Positions 48,022-53,550 of a stretch of 56,210 bases of DNA are shown here, one piece after another (the stretch's first letter is position 1; every line of letters starts with the position of its first letter). The notes beneath the pieces are model-generated. The model did not search any database and was not told the DNA's origin. It saw only the letters and a program-made list of their open reading frames with translations. Where the stretch lies: the IMG/VR virus record IMGVR_UViG_3300020420_000018, positions 1 through 56,210 of that record; one strand, 5' to 3'. The translations under genes and the position numbers were made by a program. Origin of the DNA: a virus. Lineage: Duplodnaviria; Caudoviricetes.

Positions 48022-48077
48022 GAAAAGCTTTTTTACAAAAGCCATTTCTCATGTATAAAACTCTATGGAAGGAAATC

Positions 48078-48722
48078 ATGACAGAAACAAGAAGAATAGA
48101 ATATAGATTTTTACATTGGGGTCCGTTCGTATGTCATTACATACTAACCCCGGAAGAATTAACGTTCCTTAGAAAATTAAAAGGCAAAGAAGATTATAGA
48201 AAAAATTTAGCAGGTCATTTAGAAAAAGAAAAATCTTTAGATAAAAAAGATGTTTATAATATTTTACTCCCTTATTTAAATAGTTATGCTCAAGGTTACC
48301 AAGATTATAGAGCTCAGCCATTATGTAATGGATTTGAAATGATAACAGCTTGGATTAATCATCAAAAGAAAAACGAGTTTAATCCTCCTCACACACATGA
48401 TGGTCATCTGTCTTTTGTAATATACACAGAAATACCAGAGGGGCTGCATAAAGAGTGTCATACAAGTTCAGCCAGCAGTCCAGGTCCAGGTTGTATAACT
48501 TTTGATTTTAATCTTTCAGGTAATGGTTTAAATAAATTTTTCTTACAAACACATTCACATTTACCATCAGTAGGAGATATGTTTATTTTCCCTGCCGGTT
48601 TACCACATTGGGTTTACCCTTTTAAAACAACTGAAGGAGAAAGAATTTCTATATCGGGAAATATAGATTTAATAGACGGTGATAAAACATTAACAGCAAG
48701 AAATGATAGCAAAGAAAAGTAA
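48078..48722 (+). CDS. Putative 2OG-Fe(II) oxygenase
   Basis: WINHQ..EFNPPHTH...FPAGLPHWVYP...ERISISGN; start MTETR after GAAGGA. Confidence 0.8.
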   Translation: MTETRRIEYRFLHWGPFVCHYILTPEELTFLRKLKGKEDYRKNLAGHLEKEKSLDKKDVYNILLPYLNSYAQGYQDYRAQPLCNGFEMITAWINHQKKNEFNPPHTHDGHLSFVIYTEIPEGLHKECHTSSASSPGPGCITFDFNLSGNGLNKFFLQTHSHLPSVGDMFIFPAGLPHWVYPFKTTEGERISISGNIDLIDGDKTLTARNDSKEK

Positions 48723-49674: not shown

Positions 49675-49899
49675 ATGTTTACTGGAAAGGTATTAAGACA
49701 AGCATTAGATAAATTTTTAAAAAGTGAGGTGGCAGCCAACGCTAGAGTACAAGTTATTCTGCCAAACGGTGAGTTCTACGACATTACAGGTGTGAAGCTG
49801 TTAGAAAATAAATTAATTGGTGTAAGAGAGTCACATAGACTTGCCATTACTATATCCCCTGAACAGTGGAAAATGGGTAAAGTTATCAAAAAACTATGA
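49675..49899 (+). CDS. Hypothetical protein
   Basis: Probable start MFTGK at 49675. Confidence 0.7.
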   Translation: MFTGKVLRQALDKFLKSEVAANARVQVILPNGEFYDITGVKLLENKLIGVRESHRLAITISPEQWKMGKVIKKL

Positions 49900-50483
49900 A
49901 TTATGATTATAAAATTCTAGATTTAAAATATCATTTAAAGAGTCTAATAAATAAAAATACATGCAAAGAGCTAATTAATTTTTATGAAGCTAATAAAAAT
50001 TTAGCTAAACTTGAAGCTAGTTATAAATTTAATGAGCGTCAAAATTTATTTGACAACTGCAACTTTCTTAATCTTTCTGAAAATACTGAGAACGACGATT
50101 TTAAAAAACCTTACGAACTAATTATACAATATTTAAAAATAGTGTTAACAAATTATGAGATGCATGTTCGTTCTAAATTATGTCCTACTTTTGAAGTACA
50201 TAAGTTTATGAAACAAACTAATAACATTAGAATAATAAAATACGAAGTGGGTCAATCTATAAAAGATCACACTGATGCTGGTCCTCATACGAGAGGGTCA
50301 TTAACTATAAATTTAAACGATGATTATGAAGGAGGAGAGTTTAGATTTTTTGGTGGTAAGGTAAAATTAAACTTGAGTGCAGGCGAAGCTATGCTTTTTC
50401 CAGCTGAACCCATTTGGATCCATGGGACCGAACCTGTAACTAAAGGTGCGAGATACGCCATCAATTGTTTTCTAAAACAATGA
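49896..50483 (+). CDS. 2OG-Fe(II) oxygenase
   Basis: HTD, INLNDDYEGGEF, WIHGTEPVTKGARY. Confidence 0.85.
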   Translation: MNYDYKILDLKYHLKSLINKNTCKELINFYEANKNLAKLEASYKFNERQNLFDNCNFLNLSENTENDDFKKPYELIIQYLKIVLTNYEMHVRSKLCPTFEVHKFMKQTNNIRIIKYEVGQSIKDHTDAGPHTRGSLTINLNDDYEGGEFRFFGGKVKLNLSAGEAMLFPAEPIWIHGTEPVTKGARYAINCFLKQ

Positions 50484-51013
50484 AATTAGCCTACTCAATA
50501 CCTGGAAAGATCTGGTGTATATCTAATTTTTTAGATTATAATATGTACAAAGGTATTCACAATGCCATTATTAAAGAAAGAAATAAGATAAATCTGCACA
50601 GTGTGAAAGGTCTATGGGGTGATGATTTAATTAAAAATATTATACCACCCATGAGAACGCAAGTAAGTAACTATAAACCTTTTGAACACTTAAAAACTCT
50701 AGTTAAACACAATCCCTATTTTCAAATGAGCGATACAAAAGAGATGTCAACTACAATTCATTACATGAAGAAAGGCGCTGGTGTTAATTGGCATGATGAT
50801 GGTTCTTGGAAATATGGGGCTACTTTTTATGTAAATCATAAATGGCATAAGCAATGGGGCGGTGAGTTTATGTTTCTTGATAATAATGGTCATGGTTGGA
50901 TACCACCTGTGGGTAACTCTGTAATTATTGTTAAAGCTCCTATTCCACATAAAGTTAACCCTGTTTTAAGTCCAGTTGTTCCTAGAATTTCTGTGCAAAT
51001 GTTTATGAAATAG
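50480..51013 (+). CDS. 2OG-Fe(II) oxygenase
   Basis: WHDD, WGGEFMF, PHKVNPV, RISVQ; ATGA-coupled start at 50480. Confidence 0.8.
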   Translation: MKLAYSIPGKIWCISNFLDYNMYKGIHNAIIKERNKINLHSVKGLWGDDLIKNIIPPMRTQVSNYKPFEHLKTLVKHNPYFQMSDTKEMSTTIHYMKKGAGVNWHDDGSWKYGATFYVNHKWHKQWGGEFMFLDNNGHGWIPPVGNSVIIVKAPIPHKVNPVLSPVVPRISVQMFMK

Positions 51014-51027
51014 AATGAGGTGTAGTA

Positions 51028-51420
51028 GTGAATCCAGAGAAAAAATTTTGGTATGAAATTAAAAATTTTAACGTTAAGAACAACTGCAAATTATCGTTTA
51101 CCCGTGTAGAAAACACTGCTTCTTGGGGTACTCCGGACATACTCGGATACAATACTAATAATTATTTTTTTACTGTTGAATTAAAAGTAACAAAAACAAA
51201 CAAGGTCCGCCTGTCGCCTCACCAAATAGCGTTCCATGTGAAACACCCTGACAATACATTTATTCTAGTTAAGGCCCTCTCCCTTAACTCCATAAAACTT
51301 TATGAGGGGAAGGTTATCAAGGAGCTTGATGCTCAAGGCTTGCGGCTTGAAGCTTGCTCCTCGGGGCTTGAGGCTTGCTTCTCAAGGCTTGCAGCTTGTG
51401 GCTTGCCGCTTGAGGCTTGA
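51028..51420 (+). CDS. VRR-NUC / Holliday junction resolvase-like nuclease
   Basis: RVEN...GTPD...VELK...LSPHQIAF; GTG start, SD GAGG. Confidence 0.75.
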   Translation: MNPEKKFWYEIKNFNVKNNCKLSFTRVENTASWGTPDILGYNTNNYFFTVELKVTKTNKVRLSPHQIAFHVKHPDNTFILVKALSLNSIKLYEGKVIKELDAQGLRLEACSSGLEACFSRLAACGLPLEA

Positions 51421-51428
51421 CGCTTAGG
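51324..51428. repeat. Phased heptamer repeat (GCTTGnn)
   Basis: 11 exact GCTTG copies at 51324, 51338, 51345, 51352, 51366, 51373, 51387, 51394, 51401, 51408, 51415, all in 7-bp phase. Confidence 0.85.
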
Positions 51429-51542
51429 GCCCGGACCAGGCGCACGCTCCACTTGCTCCGTCGAGCTTGGCTCGCTAATGGCCTGATCCAGTTTATTACG
51501 TAGCTTGCGTAATTCTTTATAATATTTTGGATGTCTAAACAT
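51333..51542 (-). CDS. Hypothetical protein (MFRHPKYYKELRK) ending in repeat-derived QAS tract
   Basis: TAATG-coupled to the Gp88-like gene. Confidence 0.55.
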   Translation of the reverse strand: MFRHPKYYKELRKLRNKLDQAISEPSSTEQVERAPGPGPKRQASSGKPQAASLEKQASSPEEQASSRKP

Positions 51543-52135
51543 TAATGCTTCCCGTATGAAACTACTTTTACAGCAGGATCCCAACATTGTCTACAGTCAC
51601 CGCAGGAATTATTTTGTTTAGGTGCTGGACACGTGGCGCCAGATTCTACAACCATTGAAGAGTTTGGCCAGCTGTCGTTGCGCTGTCCAATCATTGGCGG
51701 GCTAAATCTGATCACCAGGTTACCAGGTTTATTATATAAATAATTTTTTATCCAAGCCTCCCGGGTTGGCATCCAGTGCTTAACTTCAGGTGTCAATTTA
51801 CATACTGAATAAATTTTGTTTAAGTGTTCCAGGTCTTGAACGTCTCCGGCGTCGTGCCATCTAAAATATTTTTGACGTTTAACTTGTACAACCATTGCTG
51901 CAACCCACAGAGAATTTTTAATTTTTTCTAGTCTATCATATTGAGCTGCTTTAATTGCTTTGTATCTTGTGTAATTACCTTTCAAAGCGTAACAGCTGGC
52001 ACAGACTGAACCTTTTATTTTTCTAAGCTTTGATCCTGTCTTACACTCCCAGGCTGGCAGGCTATAAGATAGCCCAGGCATTTTGCTTGTACGGGTTAGA
52101 CTACCTGTTATTTGTTTTGCTATTTTTACTTTCAT
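51542..52135 (-). CDS. Phage Gp88-family protein (Cys-rich, Fe-S/radical-SAM-like)
   Basis: SKMPG.SYSLPA..C..G...C..CYA, FRWHDAGD, HWMPTRE, CPA...CGDCRQCW. Confidence 0.7.
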   Translation of the reverse strand: MKVKIAKQITGSLTRTSKMPGLSYSLPAWECKTGSKLRKIKGSVCASCYALKGNYTRYKAIKAAQYDRLEKIKNSLWVAAMVVQVKRQKYFRWHDAGDVQDLEHLNKIYSVCKLTPEVKHWMPTREAWIKNYLYNKPGNLVIRFSPPMIGQRNDSWPNSSMVVESGATCPAPKQNNSCGDCRQCWDPAVKVVSYGKH

Positions 52136-52141
52136 ATATCC

Positions 52142-52169
52142 TATATAATCCTTTATTCTTTATTGTCAA
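52142..52169 (-). promoter_or_regulatory. Putative leaderless promoter of the Gp88-like gene
   Basis: Minus-strand TTGACA-16 bp-TATATA-6 nt-ATG; two AGGAT motifs. Confidence 0.5.
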
Positions 52170-52256
52170 GCTTGTGGCTTGCGGCTTCAGGCTCTTCAAC
52201 CCGCCCACGCGTTGAGTTAGCGGTAGAGTCCCCTGAAGCTTGCAGCTTGCAGCTTG
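52170..52256. repeat. Second GCTTG heptamer cluster
   Basis: GCTTG at 52170, 52177, 52238, 52245, 52252 flanking a hairpin. Confidence 0.7.
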
Positions 52257-52418
52257 ACCAGTGGGGAGCGTGATATATTGCTGCTAGCCTCACAGCTTCA
52301 ATCTTCTTGCCCACTGATCCCAGGTCCAGCCTTAAAGATGCTCGAGACTGTCTGTACTGGACCAGGGATCAGCACCCAGGAAAGACGGTCAACAGCTGAC
52401 GGTGTGATCCTGGATACT
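52184..52418 (-). ncRNA. Candidate multi-hairpin non-coding RNA cluster
   Basis: Four consecutive GC-rich stems of 8-16 bp with 25-45 nt interiors; stem mismatches become G-U pairs only on the minus strand. Confidence 0.55.
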
Positions 52419-52427
52419 ACCCATTAA

Positions 52428-52589
52428 TTAATTCTTAACTTCCATATCCTCCGTAAGTACAAGTGGTTTTTTAAAATTGTACTGTTCTAAAATTCTTAAT
52501 CTTTTATGAACCGTTTCAAAAAGTTTGTGTTGTAGTTTTATCATTTCTCCAACATCCTGAAAAAGTTCTTTGATTTTTTCATCTGTCAT
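52428..52589 (-). CDS. Microprotein (53 aa)
   Basis: Hand-translated MTDEKIKELFQDVGEMIKLQHKLFETVHKRLRILEQYNFKKPLVLTEDMEVKN; SD GGAGGG. Confidence 0.65.
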   Translation of the reverse strand: MTDEKIKELFQDVGEMIKLQHKLFETVHKRLRILEQYNFKKPLVLTEDMEVKN

Positions 52590-52777
52590 AATTGCACCCT
52601 CCAAGTTGTTGTTGCTGTTCTATAACCTTCATTGTCCAGGTCATAATAAGTCATACAAGGTACACCATCTTTAGATGTAAAGTATCTACACAGTTCAGTC
52701 CACTTTGCATTTCTTGTAATATGCTTTTTGTGTTTCTTAGCCCAAAAAGTTATTTTAAATGTTTTGTTTAGTTCCAT
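52586..52777 (-). CDS. Hypothetical protein (63 aa)
   Basis: SD GAAAGGA; FKITFWAKKHKKHITR. Confidence 0.7.
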   Translation of the reverse strand: MELNKTFKITFWAKKHKKHITRNAKWTELCRYFTSKDGVPCMTYYDLDNEGYRTATTTWRVQL

Positions 52778-52921
52778 ATTCTTTATTCCTTTCTATTAGG
52801 ATAATCCCATACTAATGTGGCAAAAATAAGGCAGAAACAAAAATAATTTATTTTTATTCAACCACAGGTTGTGCTGCGAAATAGAATCATTCTAAACTGG
52901 AAATATAATTAATTTTTTTAT

Positions 52922-52959
52922 TTGACATTGTTTTTAATATAGTATAGGATTTTCCTATA
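52922..52959 (+). promoter_or_regulatory. Sigma70 promoter with overlapping palindrome
   Basis: TTGACA-17 bp-TAGGAT with AT-rich upstream region; TATAGGA-ttt-TCCTATA covers the -10 and start. Confidence 0.7.
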
Positions 52960-52980
52960 TACAAGAAAGGAAATACAAAT

Positions 52981-53550
52981 ATGAAAGCAATGACTAAATA
53001 TCAGCTGGAGCATTTTAAAACTAAAGTAAAAGATAAATTCGCTCCAATGATTGAAGAGGCGGATTTGTCTCTTCGTAAGATAGTGGCGGATATGACTGAA
53101 AGCGCAGAAAAAAAGCTATCAGATAAAATAGGCGCGACTGAAATAATAAAGCTGTTGGAAGATGCAGAAGCGGAGCATATTAAAGCAATGAAAAAAGCTA
53201 GAACTTTTTTCACTAAAAATATAACCGCGGAGCAAAAACAAAACCTAGATTATAAATTTAAAAAAGAAGAGAAGCTGGGTTTTGATAGTTATTCTAGTAA
53301 TAGGATAACTCCGGAGGATTGTAAAGAGCAGATAAGAAGCTGGGCTCAATCACTTGCAGAACGTGAAGCAGAAAAAACTCCAATAGGTAAAAAGAAAGTT
53401 AAGCTATTACAATTAAAAGAAGATGCGATTTCAGATGTAATGGAAAGCGGGATGCCAGCTGAACTAATTGAGAAATTAGGACAGCGGTTGAAAGTGATAG
53501 GAATTGCCTGGAATAATAATGTTAAGGCCATAGGACAGGACTTAAATTAA
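52981..53550 (+). CDS. Hypothetical helical protein (probable early gene)
   Basis: 189 aa; own promoter, SD GAAAGGA, downstream hairpin. Confidence 0.75.
   Translation: MKAMTKYQLEHFKTKVKDKFAPMIEEADLSLRKIVADMTESAEKKLSDKIGATEIIKLLEDAEAEHIKAMKKARTFFTKNITAEQKQNLDYKFKKEEKLGFDSYSSNRITPEDCKEQIRSWAQSLAEREAEKTPIGKKKVKLLQLKEDAISDVMESGMPAELIEKLGQRLKVIGIAWNNNVKAIGQDLN

What the first reader, a model, noticed from the sequence alone, without database searches (positions are those of the whole stretch)
52184..52418. Unannotated array of long-stemmed RNA hairpins with unique loops, co-transcribed with putative early genes
Seen: a ~235-nt GC-rich non-coding island in an AT-rich genome holds four back-to-back stem-loops. 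Read on the minus strand: (A) AGUAUCCAGGA/UCCUGGGUGCU, 52371-52418; (B) CUGAUCCCUGGUCCAG/CUGGACCUGGGAUCAG, 52314-52372, 15 of 16 bp; (C) GAUCAGUGGG/CCCACUGGUC, 52256-52319; (D) GCUUCAGG/CCUGAAGC with inner pairing, 52184-52239. The three mismatches in stems A and C are G-U wobbles only on the minus strand, which points to selection at RNA level. The cluster begins ~10 nt after the stop of minus-strand ORF 52428-52589. Adjacent stems share bases (GAUCAG between B and C), and each encloses an unrelated 25-45 nt interior. Inference: a polycistronic small-RNA cassette in which stems act as processing scaffolds and loops as variable guides, decoys or antisense against host RNAs or defence proteins. 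I do not recognise a known family.
Basis: partly seen in the sequence, partly recalled or inferred. Interest (0 to 1): 0.85.

Follow-up and report, generated by a model that had tools for sequence, protein, structure and literature searches.

The report
Pelagiphage array of structured RNA hairpins
A GC-rich stretch of an ocean phage genome encodes a string of hairpins, most likely RNA, whose stems are kept across many related phages while their interiors differ between even close relatives, which points to an undescribed family of phage non-coding RNAs whose job is still unknown.

Summary
Window 52184-52418 is a 52-58% GC, non-coding island in a 35% GC HTVC023P-type pelagiphage. It folds into four back-to-back hairpins.

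Two of the hairpins belong to conserved motif families that Rfam 15 does not hold.
- Hairpin B has a near-invariant 11-bp base helix with a U.U mismatch, a covarying distal stem and a hypervariable interior.
- Hairpin A has a covarying outer stem, the internal loop UCACACC/CGUCUU, and a covarying inner hairpin.

Covariation is strong for both. In B stems G.U outnumbers A.C 136:16, so the folded strand is the window's minus strand, the GP88 coding strand.

B occurs at one locus per genome, upstream of the GP88 gene. In 68 of 117 related loci a sigma-70-like promoter lies within 260 nt upstream. The same interiors sit in different closing stems, and close relatives differ by whole interiors. In 9 of 35 relatives scanned the array holds Rfam Flavobacterium-1 RNA; the window does not.

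Best reading: a modular non-coding RNA array whose conserved closing helices act as protein-recognition or processing scaffolds around exchangeable cargo RNAs. The function is inferred. Expression could not be tested because the run-search tool was down.

The parts
52372..52417 (-). Hairpin A, member of the 'A-type' motif. Outer stem 52417-52408 pairs with 52381-52372. Conserved 5' internal-loop strand UCACACC at 52407-52401. Inner hairpin at 52400-52388. Conserved 3' internal-loop strand CGUCUU at 52387-52382.
   Evidence: 42 unique instances in 45 loci. Alignment A5: 88.6% of cells paired against 62.6% in shuffles, 13 of 13 pairs with changes on both sides, slid controls at most 46.3%. G.U 36 against A.C 2.
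52314..52372 (-). Hairpin B, member of the 'B-type' motif. Base helix CUGAUCCCUGG/CCUGGGAUCAG with a U.U mismatch (52364 with 52322), distal stem UCCAG/CUGGA, 27-nt interior at 52356-52330.
   Evidence: Model R1 scores 61.3 bits on the minus strand and 30.0 bits on the plus strand, and this is the only full match in the window. The interior is a singleton among 212 unique interiors.
52256..52319 (-). Hairpin C ('C-type' closing stem). GAUCAGUGGG pairs with CCCACUGGUC, and its first six bases are also the end of B's 3' arm.
   Evidence: The exact motif CACUGGUCAAG occurs in 7 loci (6 unique contexts), with covarying bases next to CAGUG/CACUG. The same closing stem encloses interiors that sit inside B stems in other phages.
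52165..52259 (-). Hairpin D. The core GCUUCAGG/CCUGAAGC (52184-52239) is extended by pairing between two blocks of 7-nt repeats (52237-52261 and 52169-52193).
   Evidence: It is not conserved as a hairpin family. L004 and L005 have other sequences at this place.
52138..52169 (-). Sigma-70-like promoter of the GP88 gene (TTGACA, about 17 nt, TATAGGAT), directly after the heptads.
   Evidence: The same arrangement (heptads, then TTGACA about 50 nt before the start codon) is seen in most related loci.
51542..52135 (-). GP88-family gene (197 aa). It is the conserved downstream neighbour and was used as the anchor for the comparisons.
   Evidence: Pfam PF17338, E 6e-24. 583 of 599 candidate stretches in viral contigs encode relatives.
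52428..52777 (-). Two small ORFs (63 aa at 52586-52777, 58 aa at 52428-52604) upstream on the same strand. In this lineage the array is their 3' untranslated tail.
   Evidence: The 63-aa ORF is conserved in 101 loci and the 58-aa ORF in only 3. The 63-aa gene is divergent in 35 of 54 related loci and on the same strand only in L004 and L005.
51324..51425 (-). Second array of the 7-nt repeat (about 14 copies on the plus strand as GCTTGNG), downstream of GP88 between convergent genes.

Best explanation
The island is this phage's version of a hypervariable, modular array of structured non-coding RNAs. The array lies upstream of the GP88 gene in HTVC023P-type pelagiphages and is read on the GP88 (window minus) strand.

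Each module is an RNA domain closed by a helix. Some closing helices are conserved in sequence. The B-type has an 11-bp base with a U.U mismatch in a CUG/CUG context. The A-type has the internal loop UCACACC/CGUCUU.

Inferred mechanism:
- The conserved closing helices are recognition sites for a protein. The locally two-fold symmetric CCUGG/CCUGG core suggests a dimer, for instance a double-strand-specific ribonuclease such as host RNase III, or an unknown binding protein.
- These helices delimit, insulate or release the enclosed cargo RNAs.
- The cargo RNAs act in trans during early to middle infection.
- Modules are exchanged between co-infecting phages by recombination at the conserved stems.

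Shown: the structure, the strand, the conservation, the single locus per genome, the promoter context in relatives, and cargo exchange.
Inferred: transcription in this phage, protein recognition, processing, and action in trans.
For: Structure and covariation
- B-type (A3, 141 distinct rows): 95.1% of cells paired against 81.6% in shuffles, 13 of 18 pairs with changes on both sides, slid controls at most 46.8%.
- In 82 unique sense-strand rows from loci found through the GP88 protein, base pair 11 is G-C in 50 and A-U in 32 with no intermediates. The mismatch is U.U in 71, U-A in 5, A-U in 5 and G-C in 1.
- A-type (A5): 13 of 13 pairs with changes on both sides.

Strand
- In 171 unique B hairpins the distal stems hold 1176 Watson-Crick pairs, 136 G.U, 16 A.C and 50 other.
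- A-type has 36 G.U against 2 A.C.
- The model scores the sense strand higher at nearly every place.

Position
- B is always upstream of GP88 on its coding strand wherever GP88 is present.
- B occurs at one locus per genome: 4 of 5 whole or long records have a match at one locus, and HTVC023P has none.
- 61 of 80 GP88-anchored loci have 1-3 copies.

Transcription context
- A promoter-like site lies within 260 nt upstream of the first B hairpin in 68 of 117 unique loci. The background is 0.32 sites per kb of strand. In 61 of the 68 there is no sense ORF of 30 aa or more in between.
- The HTVC027P homologues gp33 and gp34, which flank its array, are highly expressed at 6-9 h (passages of PMC12753301).

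Cargo exchange
- The window and L005 (GP88 96% identical) share the A and B stems but have unrelated B interiors.
- 212 interiors fall into 163 clusters.
- Interior cores give 272 matches inside B arms and 69 outside them, for example in C-type and E-type stems.

Link to a curated RNA
- RF02976, which Rfam types as an sRNA, scores 83-110 bits on the sense strand inside the arrays of 9 of 35 relatives.
Against: - There are no expression data for this window. The look-up of sequencing runs did not answer in 11 tries.
- Folding energy is as good on the plus strand.
- G.T wobbles are also tolerated in single-stranded DNA, so the strand asymmetry does not separate RNA from ssDNA. The authors of PMC5737381 make the same point.
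- In the window's own lineage no promoter lies directly before the array. It follows two small ORFs.
- 49 of 117 loci have no promoter-like site within 260 nt.
- No nuclease or RNA-binding protein was identified among the neighbouring genes.
- Sequence conservation of the stems could be kept by recombination rather than by protein recognition.
- The loci were found with the exact base motif, so base conservation in them is by construction. Only the GP88-anchored set is unbiased.
- The rows are related sequences, not independent events.
Confidence: 0.45

Rival explanations
1. The hairpins act only in cis on neighbouring messages. In this reading they are 3'-end stabilisers, barriers to exonucleases or to read-through, or processing sites that uncouple the upstream small ORFs from GP88. 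This would resemble REP elements or the RNase III sites of T7 early mRNA, and the interiors would be free to drift.
For: - In the window the array begins 9 nt after a stop codon and ends at the GP88 promoter.
- There is no terminator-like site on the minus strand, so read-through is expected.
- The stems are long, GC-rich and strand-specific.
- The interiors are extremely variable.
Against: - In 61 of 117 relatives the array follows a promoter with no ORF in front to stabilise.
- B occurs at a single locus, not at other gene junctions.
- Interiors are themselves conserved, structured modules that recur in different stems.
- One module is a curated multi-stem RNA, RF02976.
- The near-invariant base sequence and the mismatch are more than a barrier hairpin needs.
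Confidence: 0.2
2. The variable loops are guides or antisense RNAs against host (SAR11) or phage transcripts, held in conserved processing stems.
For: Whole interiors are replaced between near-identical phages, and 129 of 163 interior clusters are singletons. This fits diversifying selection.
Against: - The longest antisense matches of the window's four interiors to its own genome are 9-10 nt. Of 300 shuffles, 198 to 291 do as well.
- Many interiors are internally base-paired modules rather than open loops.
- Host genomes could not be searched.
Confidence: 0.1
3. The hairpins work as single-stranded DNA. They could be recombination sites in the manner of integron attC sites, or signals for replication initiation or packaging that are extruded on one strand.
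For: - Like attC sites as I recall them, the hairpins fold on one strand, have a conserved base with an unpaired or mismatched position, and have a variable centre.
- Module content changes by whole units.
- The locus lies between the gene annotated as small terminase in HTVC027P and the large terminase gene.
- PMC5737381 notes that ssDNA and RNA motifs cannot be told apart by comparative analysis alone.
Against: - No integrase, HUH nuclease or transposase was found among 16 neighbouring ORFs, nor is one listed in the 82 features of HTVC027P that one search shows.
- There are no ORF cassettes between the hairpins.
- Promoters point into the arrays.
- A curated RNA family shares the array and the strand.
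Confidence: 0.12
4. The array has no function for the phage. In this reading it is a junkyard of GC-rich palindromic modules that persist and spread by recombination in a hyperplastic region.
For: - HTVC023P lacks B, and the stretch before the 600-nt gene taken to be its GP88 homologue is AT-rich.
- 19 of 80 loci lack B.
- Content is highly variable.
Against: - Compensatory changes keep the pairing.
- The 8.5:1 excess of G.U over A.C and the conserved unpaired motifs (UCACACC/CGUCUU, U.U) indicate purifying selection on a folded strand.
- The element is not dispersed within genomes.
Confidence: 0.08

Closest known systems
Rfam RF02976, Flavobacterium-1 RNA (candidate sRNA; I recall it from the Weinberg et al. 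2017 motif set, and its description is not in the main text I could read)
   Same: It occupies the same array, on the same strand and upstream of GP88, in 9 of 35 related loci at 83-110 bits against a gathering score of 58.9. It is an orphan structured RNA of unknown function.
   Different: It does not match the window. It is a 121-nt multi-stem fold, unlike hairpins A-D.
RNase III processing hairpins between early genes of phage T7 (recalled knowledge)
   Same: Long imperfect hairpins with an internal mismatch, in transcribed intergenic spacers of a phage that uses the host RNA polymerase. The helices are 16-22 bp long.
   Different: As I recall, T7 sites are single and spread over many gene junctions. 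Here there are several hairpins at one locus per genome, with cargo-like interiors. Cleavage was not tested.
REP / BIME / REPIN elements of bacterial chromosomes (recalled knowledge)
   Same: GC-rich imperfect palindromes clustered in transcribed intergenic regions. As recalled, they can stabilise upstream mRNA.
   Different: As recalled, REPs are dispersed in many copies and are moved by a dedicated transposase. The B motif is at one locus per phage genome. In 185,579 bacterial and archaeal genomes it was found on only two small MAG contigs, and both carry GP88 homologues, so they are fragments of this phage family.
Integron attC sites (recalled knowledge)
   Same: Strand-specific hairpins with a conserved base, mismatched or extrahelical positions and a variable centre, in arrays whose content changes by units.
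   Different: No ORF cassettes, no integrase nearby, promoters pointing into the array, and interiors that are themselves conserved folds.
Promoter-early stem-loop (PeSL) cassettes of T4-type phages (recalled knowledge)
   Same: Stem-loops next to early promoters in a hyperplastic region. As recalled, they are proposed to mediate modular shuffling.
   Different: As recalled, PeSLs are short units repeated between ORFs. Here long multi-hairpin stretches carry conserved internal motifs and contain no ORFs.
Type III antitoxin RNA arrays (ToxI-like) (recalled knowledge)
   Same: A non-coding repeat array just upstream of a protein gene. As recalled, a partner nuclease cuts it into units.
   Different: The hairpins are not tandem direct repeats, and no defence-system or toxin family matches the neighbours.

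Membership tests
Any Rfam 15 family | Covariance-model score at or above the family's gathering score | tested here: not met
   0 matches in the whole window at gathering. At E up to 10 in 51200-52700 the only hits are microRNA precursor and snoRNA models, at 15.7-22.8 bits against gathering scores of 43-80.
RF02976 Flavobacterium-1 RNA | Score of 58.9 bits or more | tested here: not met
   No match in the window. The score is met in the arrays of 9 of 35 related loci.
B-type hairpin (family defined here, model R1) | 11-bp base CUGAUCCCUGG/CCUGGGAUCAG with a U.U mismatch at pair 9, a paired distal stem, on the GP88 strand | tested here: met
   61.3 bits, E 6e-17 at 52310-52376 on the minus strand. 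The window sequence was one of the 18 seed rows, so its match is partly by construction. 17 other seeds and more than 60 further loci match.
A-type hairpin (family defined here, alignment A5) | Outer stem, UCACACC, inner hairpin, CGUCUU, outer stem | tested here: met
   Both strings and both stems are present at 52372-52417.
Intrinsic (rho-independent) terminator | GC-rich hairpin followed by a run of U on the transcribed strand | tested here: not met
   No terminator-like site on the minus strand in 50900-53100.
tRNA / tmRNA | Cloverleaf or tmRNA detected by ARAGORN | tested here: not met
   0 genes in the window.
REP / REPIN | Many dispersed copies in one genome | tested here: not met
   One locus per genome in the window and in 4 other records.
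REP / REPIN | Associated RAYT (IS200/IS605-type) transposase | tested here: inconclusive
   None among the 16 neighbouring ORFs scanned with Pfam. The rest of the genome was not scanned.
Integron attC | Hairpins alternate with ORF cassettes, with an integron integrase nearby | tested here: not met
   No conserved ORF inside the island. No integrase among the neighbours.
Integron attC | Conserved R and L box consensus | not tested
   I know the consensus only from memory, so no comparison was made.
RNase III processing site | Imperfect double-stranded helix of about two turns in a transcript | tested here: met
   The base of 11 bp plus an ungapped distal stem of mostly 5-11 bp gives 16-22 bp.
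RNase III processing site | Staggered cleavage by RNase III | not testable with these tools
   This needs RNA end mapping or an in vitro assay.
Type III antitoxin array | Tandem direct repeats next to an endoribonuclease toxin gene | tested here: not met
   Tandem Repeats Finder reports only the 7-nt repeats here. PADLOC gives no hit for GP88 or the small ORFs.

The most novel reading that the evidence does not exclude
HTVC023P-type pelagiphages carry an RNA cassette array. One transcript bears exchangeable structured cargo RNAs, such as decoys or aptamer-like domains against host factors. Each cargo is closed by a conserved helix whose symmetric CCUGG/CCUGG core with a U.U mismatch is the cutting or docking site of a dimeric protein. 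The same helices would serve at DNA level as joints for swapping cassettes between co-infecting phages. This would be an RNA-level counterpart of gene-cassette arrays.
Probability: 0.2. Interest if true: 0.85.

Novelty: new variant of a known kind. Interest (0 to 1): 0.62.

Why it matters
[quoted passage not shown] If expressed, a non-coding RNA array that most of them carry would be a common viral RNA in the sea.

The work has three concrete outcomes:
- It defines two motifs absent from Rfam 15, with strong covariation support.
- It places an orphan Rfam motif (Flavobacterium-1) in a phage context.
- It gives testable handles: a near-invariant helix with a U.U mismatch for pull-downs and cleavage assays, and a cultured phage (HTVC027P) that carries a B hairpin and already has RNA-seq data.

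It also shows a pattern of conserved closing stems around exchangeable interiors that I could not find described for phage RNAs.

Tried and rejected
- Known RNA families: no Rfam match in the window at gathering or at E up to 10, and no tRNA or tmRNA.
- Terminators: none on the minus strand.
- Coding: the ORFs across the island are not conserved.
- Restriction-site avoidance or enrichment as a reason for GATC, CCWGG and GGWCC in stem B: GATC occurs 207 times against 176 expected, so it is not avoided. Dropped.
- Host-derived repeat: the exact B pattern occurs on only 2 contigs of the bacterial and archaeal genome collection, and both are phage fragments.
- Dispersed mobile element: B is at one locus per genome.
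- Antisense to the phage's own genome: nothing above shuffles.
- Co-occurrence of B with the neighbouring 63-aa gene: none. 29 of 37 loci with the gene have B, against 12 of 17 without it.
- Partner protein: Pfam, PHROGs, NCBIfam and PADLOC on the neighbours name no nuclease or RNA-binding protein.
- GP88 itself: no PDB sequence relative and no Foldseek match at E up to 0.001. VIA-align gives only Z 5.0-5.7 to radical-SAM enzymes, below the level the tool calls reliable.
- Expression: the look-up of sequencing runs failed 11 times, so read laying was never used.
- Host complementarity: the genome search does not draw relatives for a virus record.
- Literature: nothing on these hairpins in PMC9599517 (0 occurrences of six terms), in the pelagiphage listings, or by the motif string (only unrelated primer coincidences). 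The description of Flavobacterium-1 is not in the main text of PMC5737381, and supplements were closed.
- A first version of the antisense script timed out and was rewritten.

Full report
**What the window is.** The window is an IMG/VR virus record of 56,210 bases, linear, with CheckV completeness 93%. Its large terminase is 85% identical to that of Pelagibacter phage HTVC027P and 62% identical to that of HTVC023P, so it is an HTVC023P-type pelagiphage. The genome is 35% GC.

**The observation.** Positions 52150-52399 reach 52-58% GC.
- RNAfold of 52160-52430 gives exactly this picture on the minus strand: -105.8 kcal/mol, z -3.87, and none of 200 shuffles as stable.
- The plus strand folds equally well (z -4.26), so energy alone does not choose a strand.
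- The island lies between the stop of a 58-aa minus-strand ORF (52428) and a TTGACA / about 17 nt / TATAGGAT promoter-like site (52169-52138) in front of a 197-aa GP88-family gene (PF17338, E 6e-24).
- ORFs that cross the island are not conserved in relatives.
- Rfam (gathering, and E up to 10 locally) and ARAGORN find nothing.
- No terminator-like site lies on the minus strand.

**Relatives.** With the GP88 protein as anchor, 583 of 599 candidate stretches in IMG/VR encode a relative, and the best 80 were kept (L004-L083). Their upstream regions also hold GC-rich hairpin stretches. Many contain the base of hairpin B word for word around unrelated interiors of different length. Wherever a GP88 homologue is present, the hairpin lies upstream of it and on its coding strand. 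The apparent exceptions were loci that I had oriented wrongly. The same pattern occurs on only two contigs among 185,579 bacterial and archaeal genomes. Both are small MAG contigs that carry GP88 homologues, so they are fragments of this phage family.

**Hairpin B is a motif family.** A covariance model built from 18 sequences finds one full match in the window: 61.3 bits on the minus strand and 30.0 on the plus strand.
- It finds matches at one locus each in HTVC027P, phage 023Pt_psg01 and two long IMG/VR contigs, and none in HTVC023P.
- Among the 80 GP88-anchored loci, 61 have 1-3 copies by pattern, and 64 have a sense-strand row among the 150 best model matches.
- In 82 unique sense rows of that set, base pairs 2-10 are almost invariant. 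Pair 11 is G-C in 50 and A-U in 32 with no intermediates. The mismatch is U.U in 71, U-A in 5, A-U in 5 and G-C in 1. The distal pairs take three to five different standard pairs each.
- On the model-fitted alignment (141 distinct rows, both strands included) 95.1% of cells pair, against 81.6% after shuffling and at most 46.8% when partners are slid. 13 of 18 pairs show changes on both sides.
- These rows are related sequences and the alignment was fitted to the model, so the numbers overstate independence. The direction of the result is still unambiguous.

**Strand.** I counted transition-type mismatches symmetrically in the ungapped distal stems of 171 unique B hairpins. The result was 1176 Watson-Crick pairs, 136 G.U, 16 A.C (which would be G.U on the other strand) and 50 others. 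The folded strand is therefore the GP88 strand, which is the window's minus strand. This fits RNA, but it would also fit single-stranded DNA of that strand.

**Hairpin A is a second family.** Its members have an outer stem, the invariant string UCACACC, an inner hairpin, the invariant string CGUCUU, and the return of the outer stem. There are 42 unique instances in 45 loci, usually abutting a B hairpin. All 13 tested pairs show changes on both sides. 88.6% of cells pair, against 62.6% in shuffles and at most 46.3% when slid. G.U outnumbers A.C 36 to 2.

**Hairpin C.** It has a smaller conserved base (CAGUG/CACUG, followed by GUC) with covarying neighbours in 6 contexts. Its full stem uses the last six bases of B's 3' arm, so the full forms of B and C compete.

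**Hairpin D.** It is mostly pairing between two blocks of a 7-nt repeat and is not conserved as such.

**Modularity.** The 212 unique B interiors fall into 163 clusters, 129 of them singletons, and the window's interior is one of the singletons.
- The window and L005 have GP88 proteins 96% identical and near-identical A and B stems, yet the B interior is entirely different. L004 (98%) has further modules.
- Interior cores searched against all loci give 272 matches between B arms and 69 elsewhere.
- The 69 include C-type stems that follow a B hairpin. They also include a third conserved closing stem, again with a U.U mismatch in a CUG/CUG context.
- That context is also the commonest 1x1 mismatch in the non-B hairpins (58 cases).

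The closing helices and their contents are therefore separable units.

**Transcription context.** In 68 of 117 unique loci a promoter-like site lies within 260 nt upstream of the first B hairpin. The background rate of 0.32 per kb of strand predicts about 8%. In 61 of the 68 there is no complete sense ORF of 30 aa or more in between.
- Between the promoter and B lie further conserved small hairpins, one of them with a covarying stem and a conserved 13-14 nt loop.
- In the window's lineage (with L004 and L005) the 63-aa gene, which is divergent in 35 of 54 relatives, lies on the same strand between the promoter region and the array. Here the array would be the tail of that message.
- For HTVC027P, passages of PMC12753301 report that gp33 (the GP88 homologue) and gp34 form a separate temporal cluster that is highly expressed at 6-9 h after infection. 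Its B hairpin lies just upstream of gp34.
- Direct evidence for this window could not be obtained, because the look-up of sequencing runs failed 11 times.

**A known RNA in the same slot.** Rfam RF02976 (Flavobacterium-1 RNA, typed sRNA) matches at 83-110 bits (gathering score 58.9) on the sense strand, between the hairpins and the GP88 promoter, in 5 of 15 and 4 of 20 relatives scanned. The window has no such match. The main text of the paper I recall as the source of that motif set does not mention it, and supplements were closed. I therefore cannot say what its authors proposed.

**What it most likely is.** The locus is a modular array of structured non-coding RNAs read on the GP88 strand.
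- The near-invariant sequence of the B base, its conserved mismatch and the invariant unpaired strings of A go beyond what a helix alone needs. This argues for recognition by a protein.
- The CCUGG/CCUGG core around the U.U is locally two-fold symmetric, and the helix is 16-22 bp long. Both would suit a dimeric double-strand-specific nuclease such as RNase III. This is inference: no cleavage data exist, and no candidate protein was found next to the array.
- Exchange of whole interiors between close relatives is most simply explained by recombination at the shared stems.
- The guide or antisense idea has no support from the phage's own genome and could not be tested on hosts.

**Rivals.**
- Purely cis-acting stabiliser or barrier hairpins.
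- Single-stranded-DNA recombination, replication or packaging signals.
- Functionless palindromic modules.

Each rival is weakened, but none is excluded, by the single-locus distribution, the promoters, the structured cargo and the selection on one strand.

**Novelty.** Searches of the paper library gave nothing on this array. These covered the pelagiphage listings, term searches inside PMC9599517 and PMC12379486, 'Flavobacterium-1', and the motif string. The two motifs are absent from Rfam 15. The kind, an orphan structured phage RNA, is known. The arrangement of conserved closing stems around exchangeable cargo at one hypervariable locus is a new variant.

Noticed in passing
window 51324-51425, 52169-52193, 52237-52261; also L001 2900-2960: A 7-nt repeat (NCAAGCN on the GP88 strand) flanks the GP88 gene on both sides. 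There are 2-7 copies running straight into the -35 TTGACA, and about 14 copies downstream. ORFs on both strands read through the downstream array, and one is annotated as gp32 in HTVC027P. In four motif-anchored loci (L097, L170, L177, L190) the listing shows no GP88 match next to the hairpins. The repeats may be regulator half-sites or recombination joints.
   Followed up: partly
window 51542-52135 (-): The GP88 protein folds with confidence (pLDDT 89.8). Its best, though weak, structural neighbours are radical-SAM enzymes: spore photoproduct lyase Z 5.7, QueE 5.3-5.5, viperin 5.3. Cysteines 31, 45, 48, 169, 178, 181 and 184 are invariant in 25 homologues. It may be a small iron-sulfur or radical-SAM-like enzyme.
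   Followed up: partly
window 52922-52950 (+), 52138-52169 (-); L008-L034: The phage promoters share TTGACA, about 17 nt, then TATAGGAT. The promoter in front of many relatives' arrays carries a perfect inverted repeat (CTTGAC, 9 nt, GTCAAG) across the -35 box and spacer, which looks like an operator.
   Followed up: no
L012, L024, L030, L031, L035, L040, L054, L063, L067: The Rfam Flavobacterium-1 RNA (RF02976) lies in pelagiphage contigs, upstream of GP88. This gives that orphan motif a phage context.
   Followed up: partly
L014, L018, L023, L035, L049, L054, L057, L017, L025; L010, L031, L034, L035, L167, L186: Further conserved modules were seen in relatives' arrays and are absent from the window. 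One is a small hairpin with a covarying stem and a conserved GAUACAC(A/U)GACAAC loop abutting B. Another is a GGGACUUGCACC...AAAAGCAAGUAGGAU module. A third is an 'E-type' closing stem with a UUU bulge and a U.U mismatch.
   Followed up: partly
window 48051-48722, 49896-50483, 50465-51013 (+): Three 2OG-Fe(II) oxygenase paralogues lie within 3 kb, next to a resolvase-like gene (51028-51420) and GP88.
   Followed up: no
L086, L095, L124, L130, L134, L136, L158, L175, L195, L196: Many IMG/VR contigs end within a few hundred bases of the hairpins. This would fit assembly breaks at a hypervariable locus. It was not quantified.
   Followed up: no
L203, L204: Two contigs binned into Psychromonas and Winogradskyella MAGs carry the B hairpin and GP88 homologues. 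They are probably pelagiphage fragments that were mis-binned.
   Followed up: yes
window 52357-52372 (-): From memory only, the 5' arm of B resembles the conserved 5' end of bacterial 16S rRNA. This was not tested, and a match of this length may well be chance.
   Followed up: no
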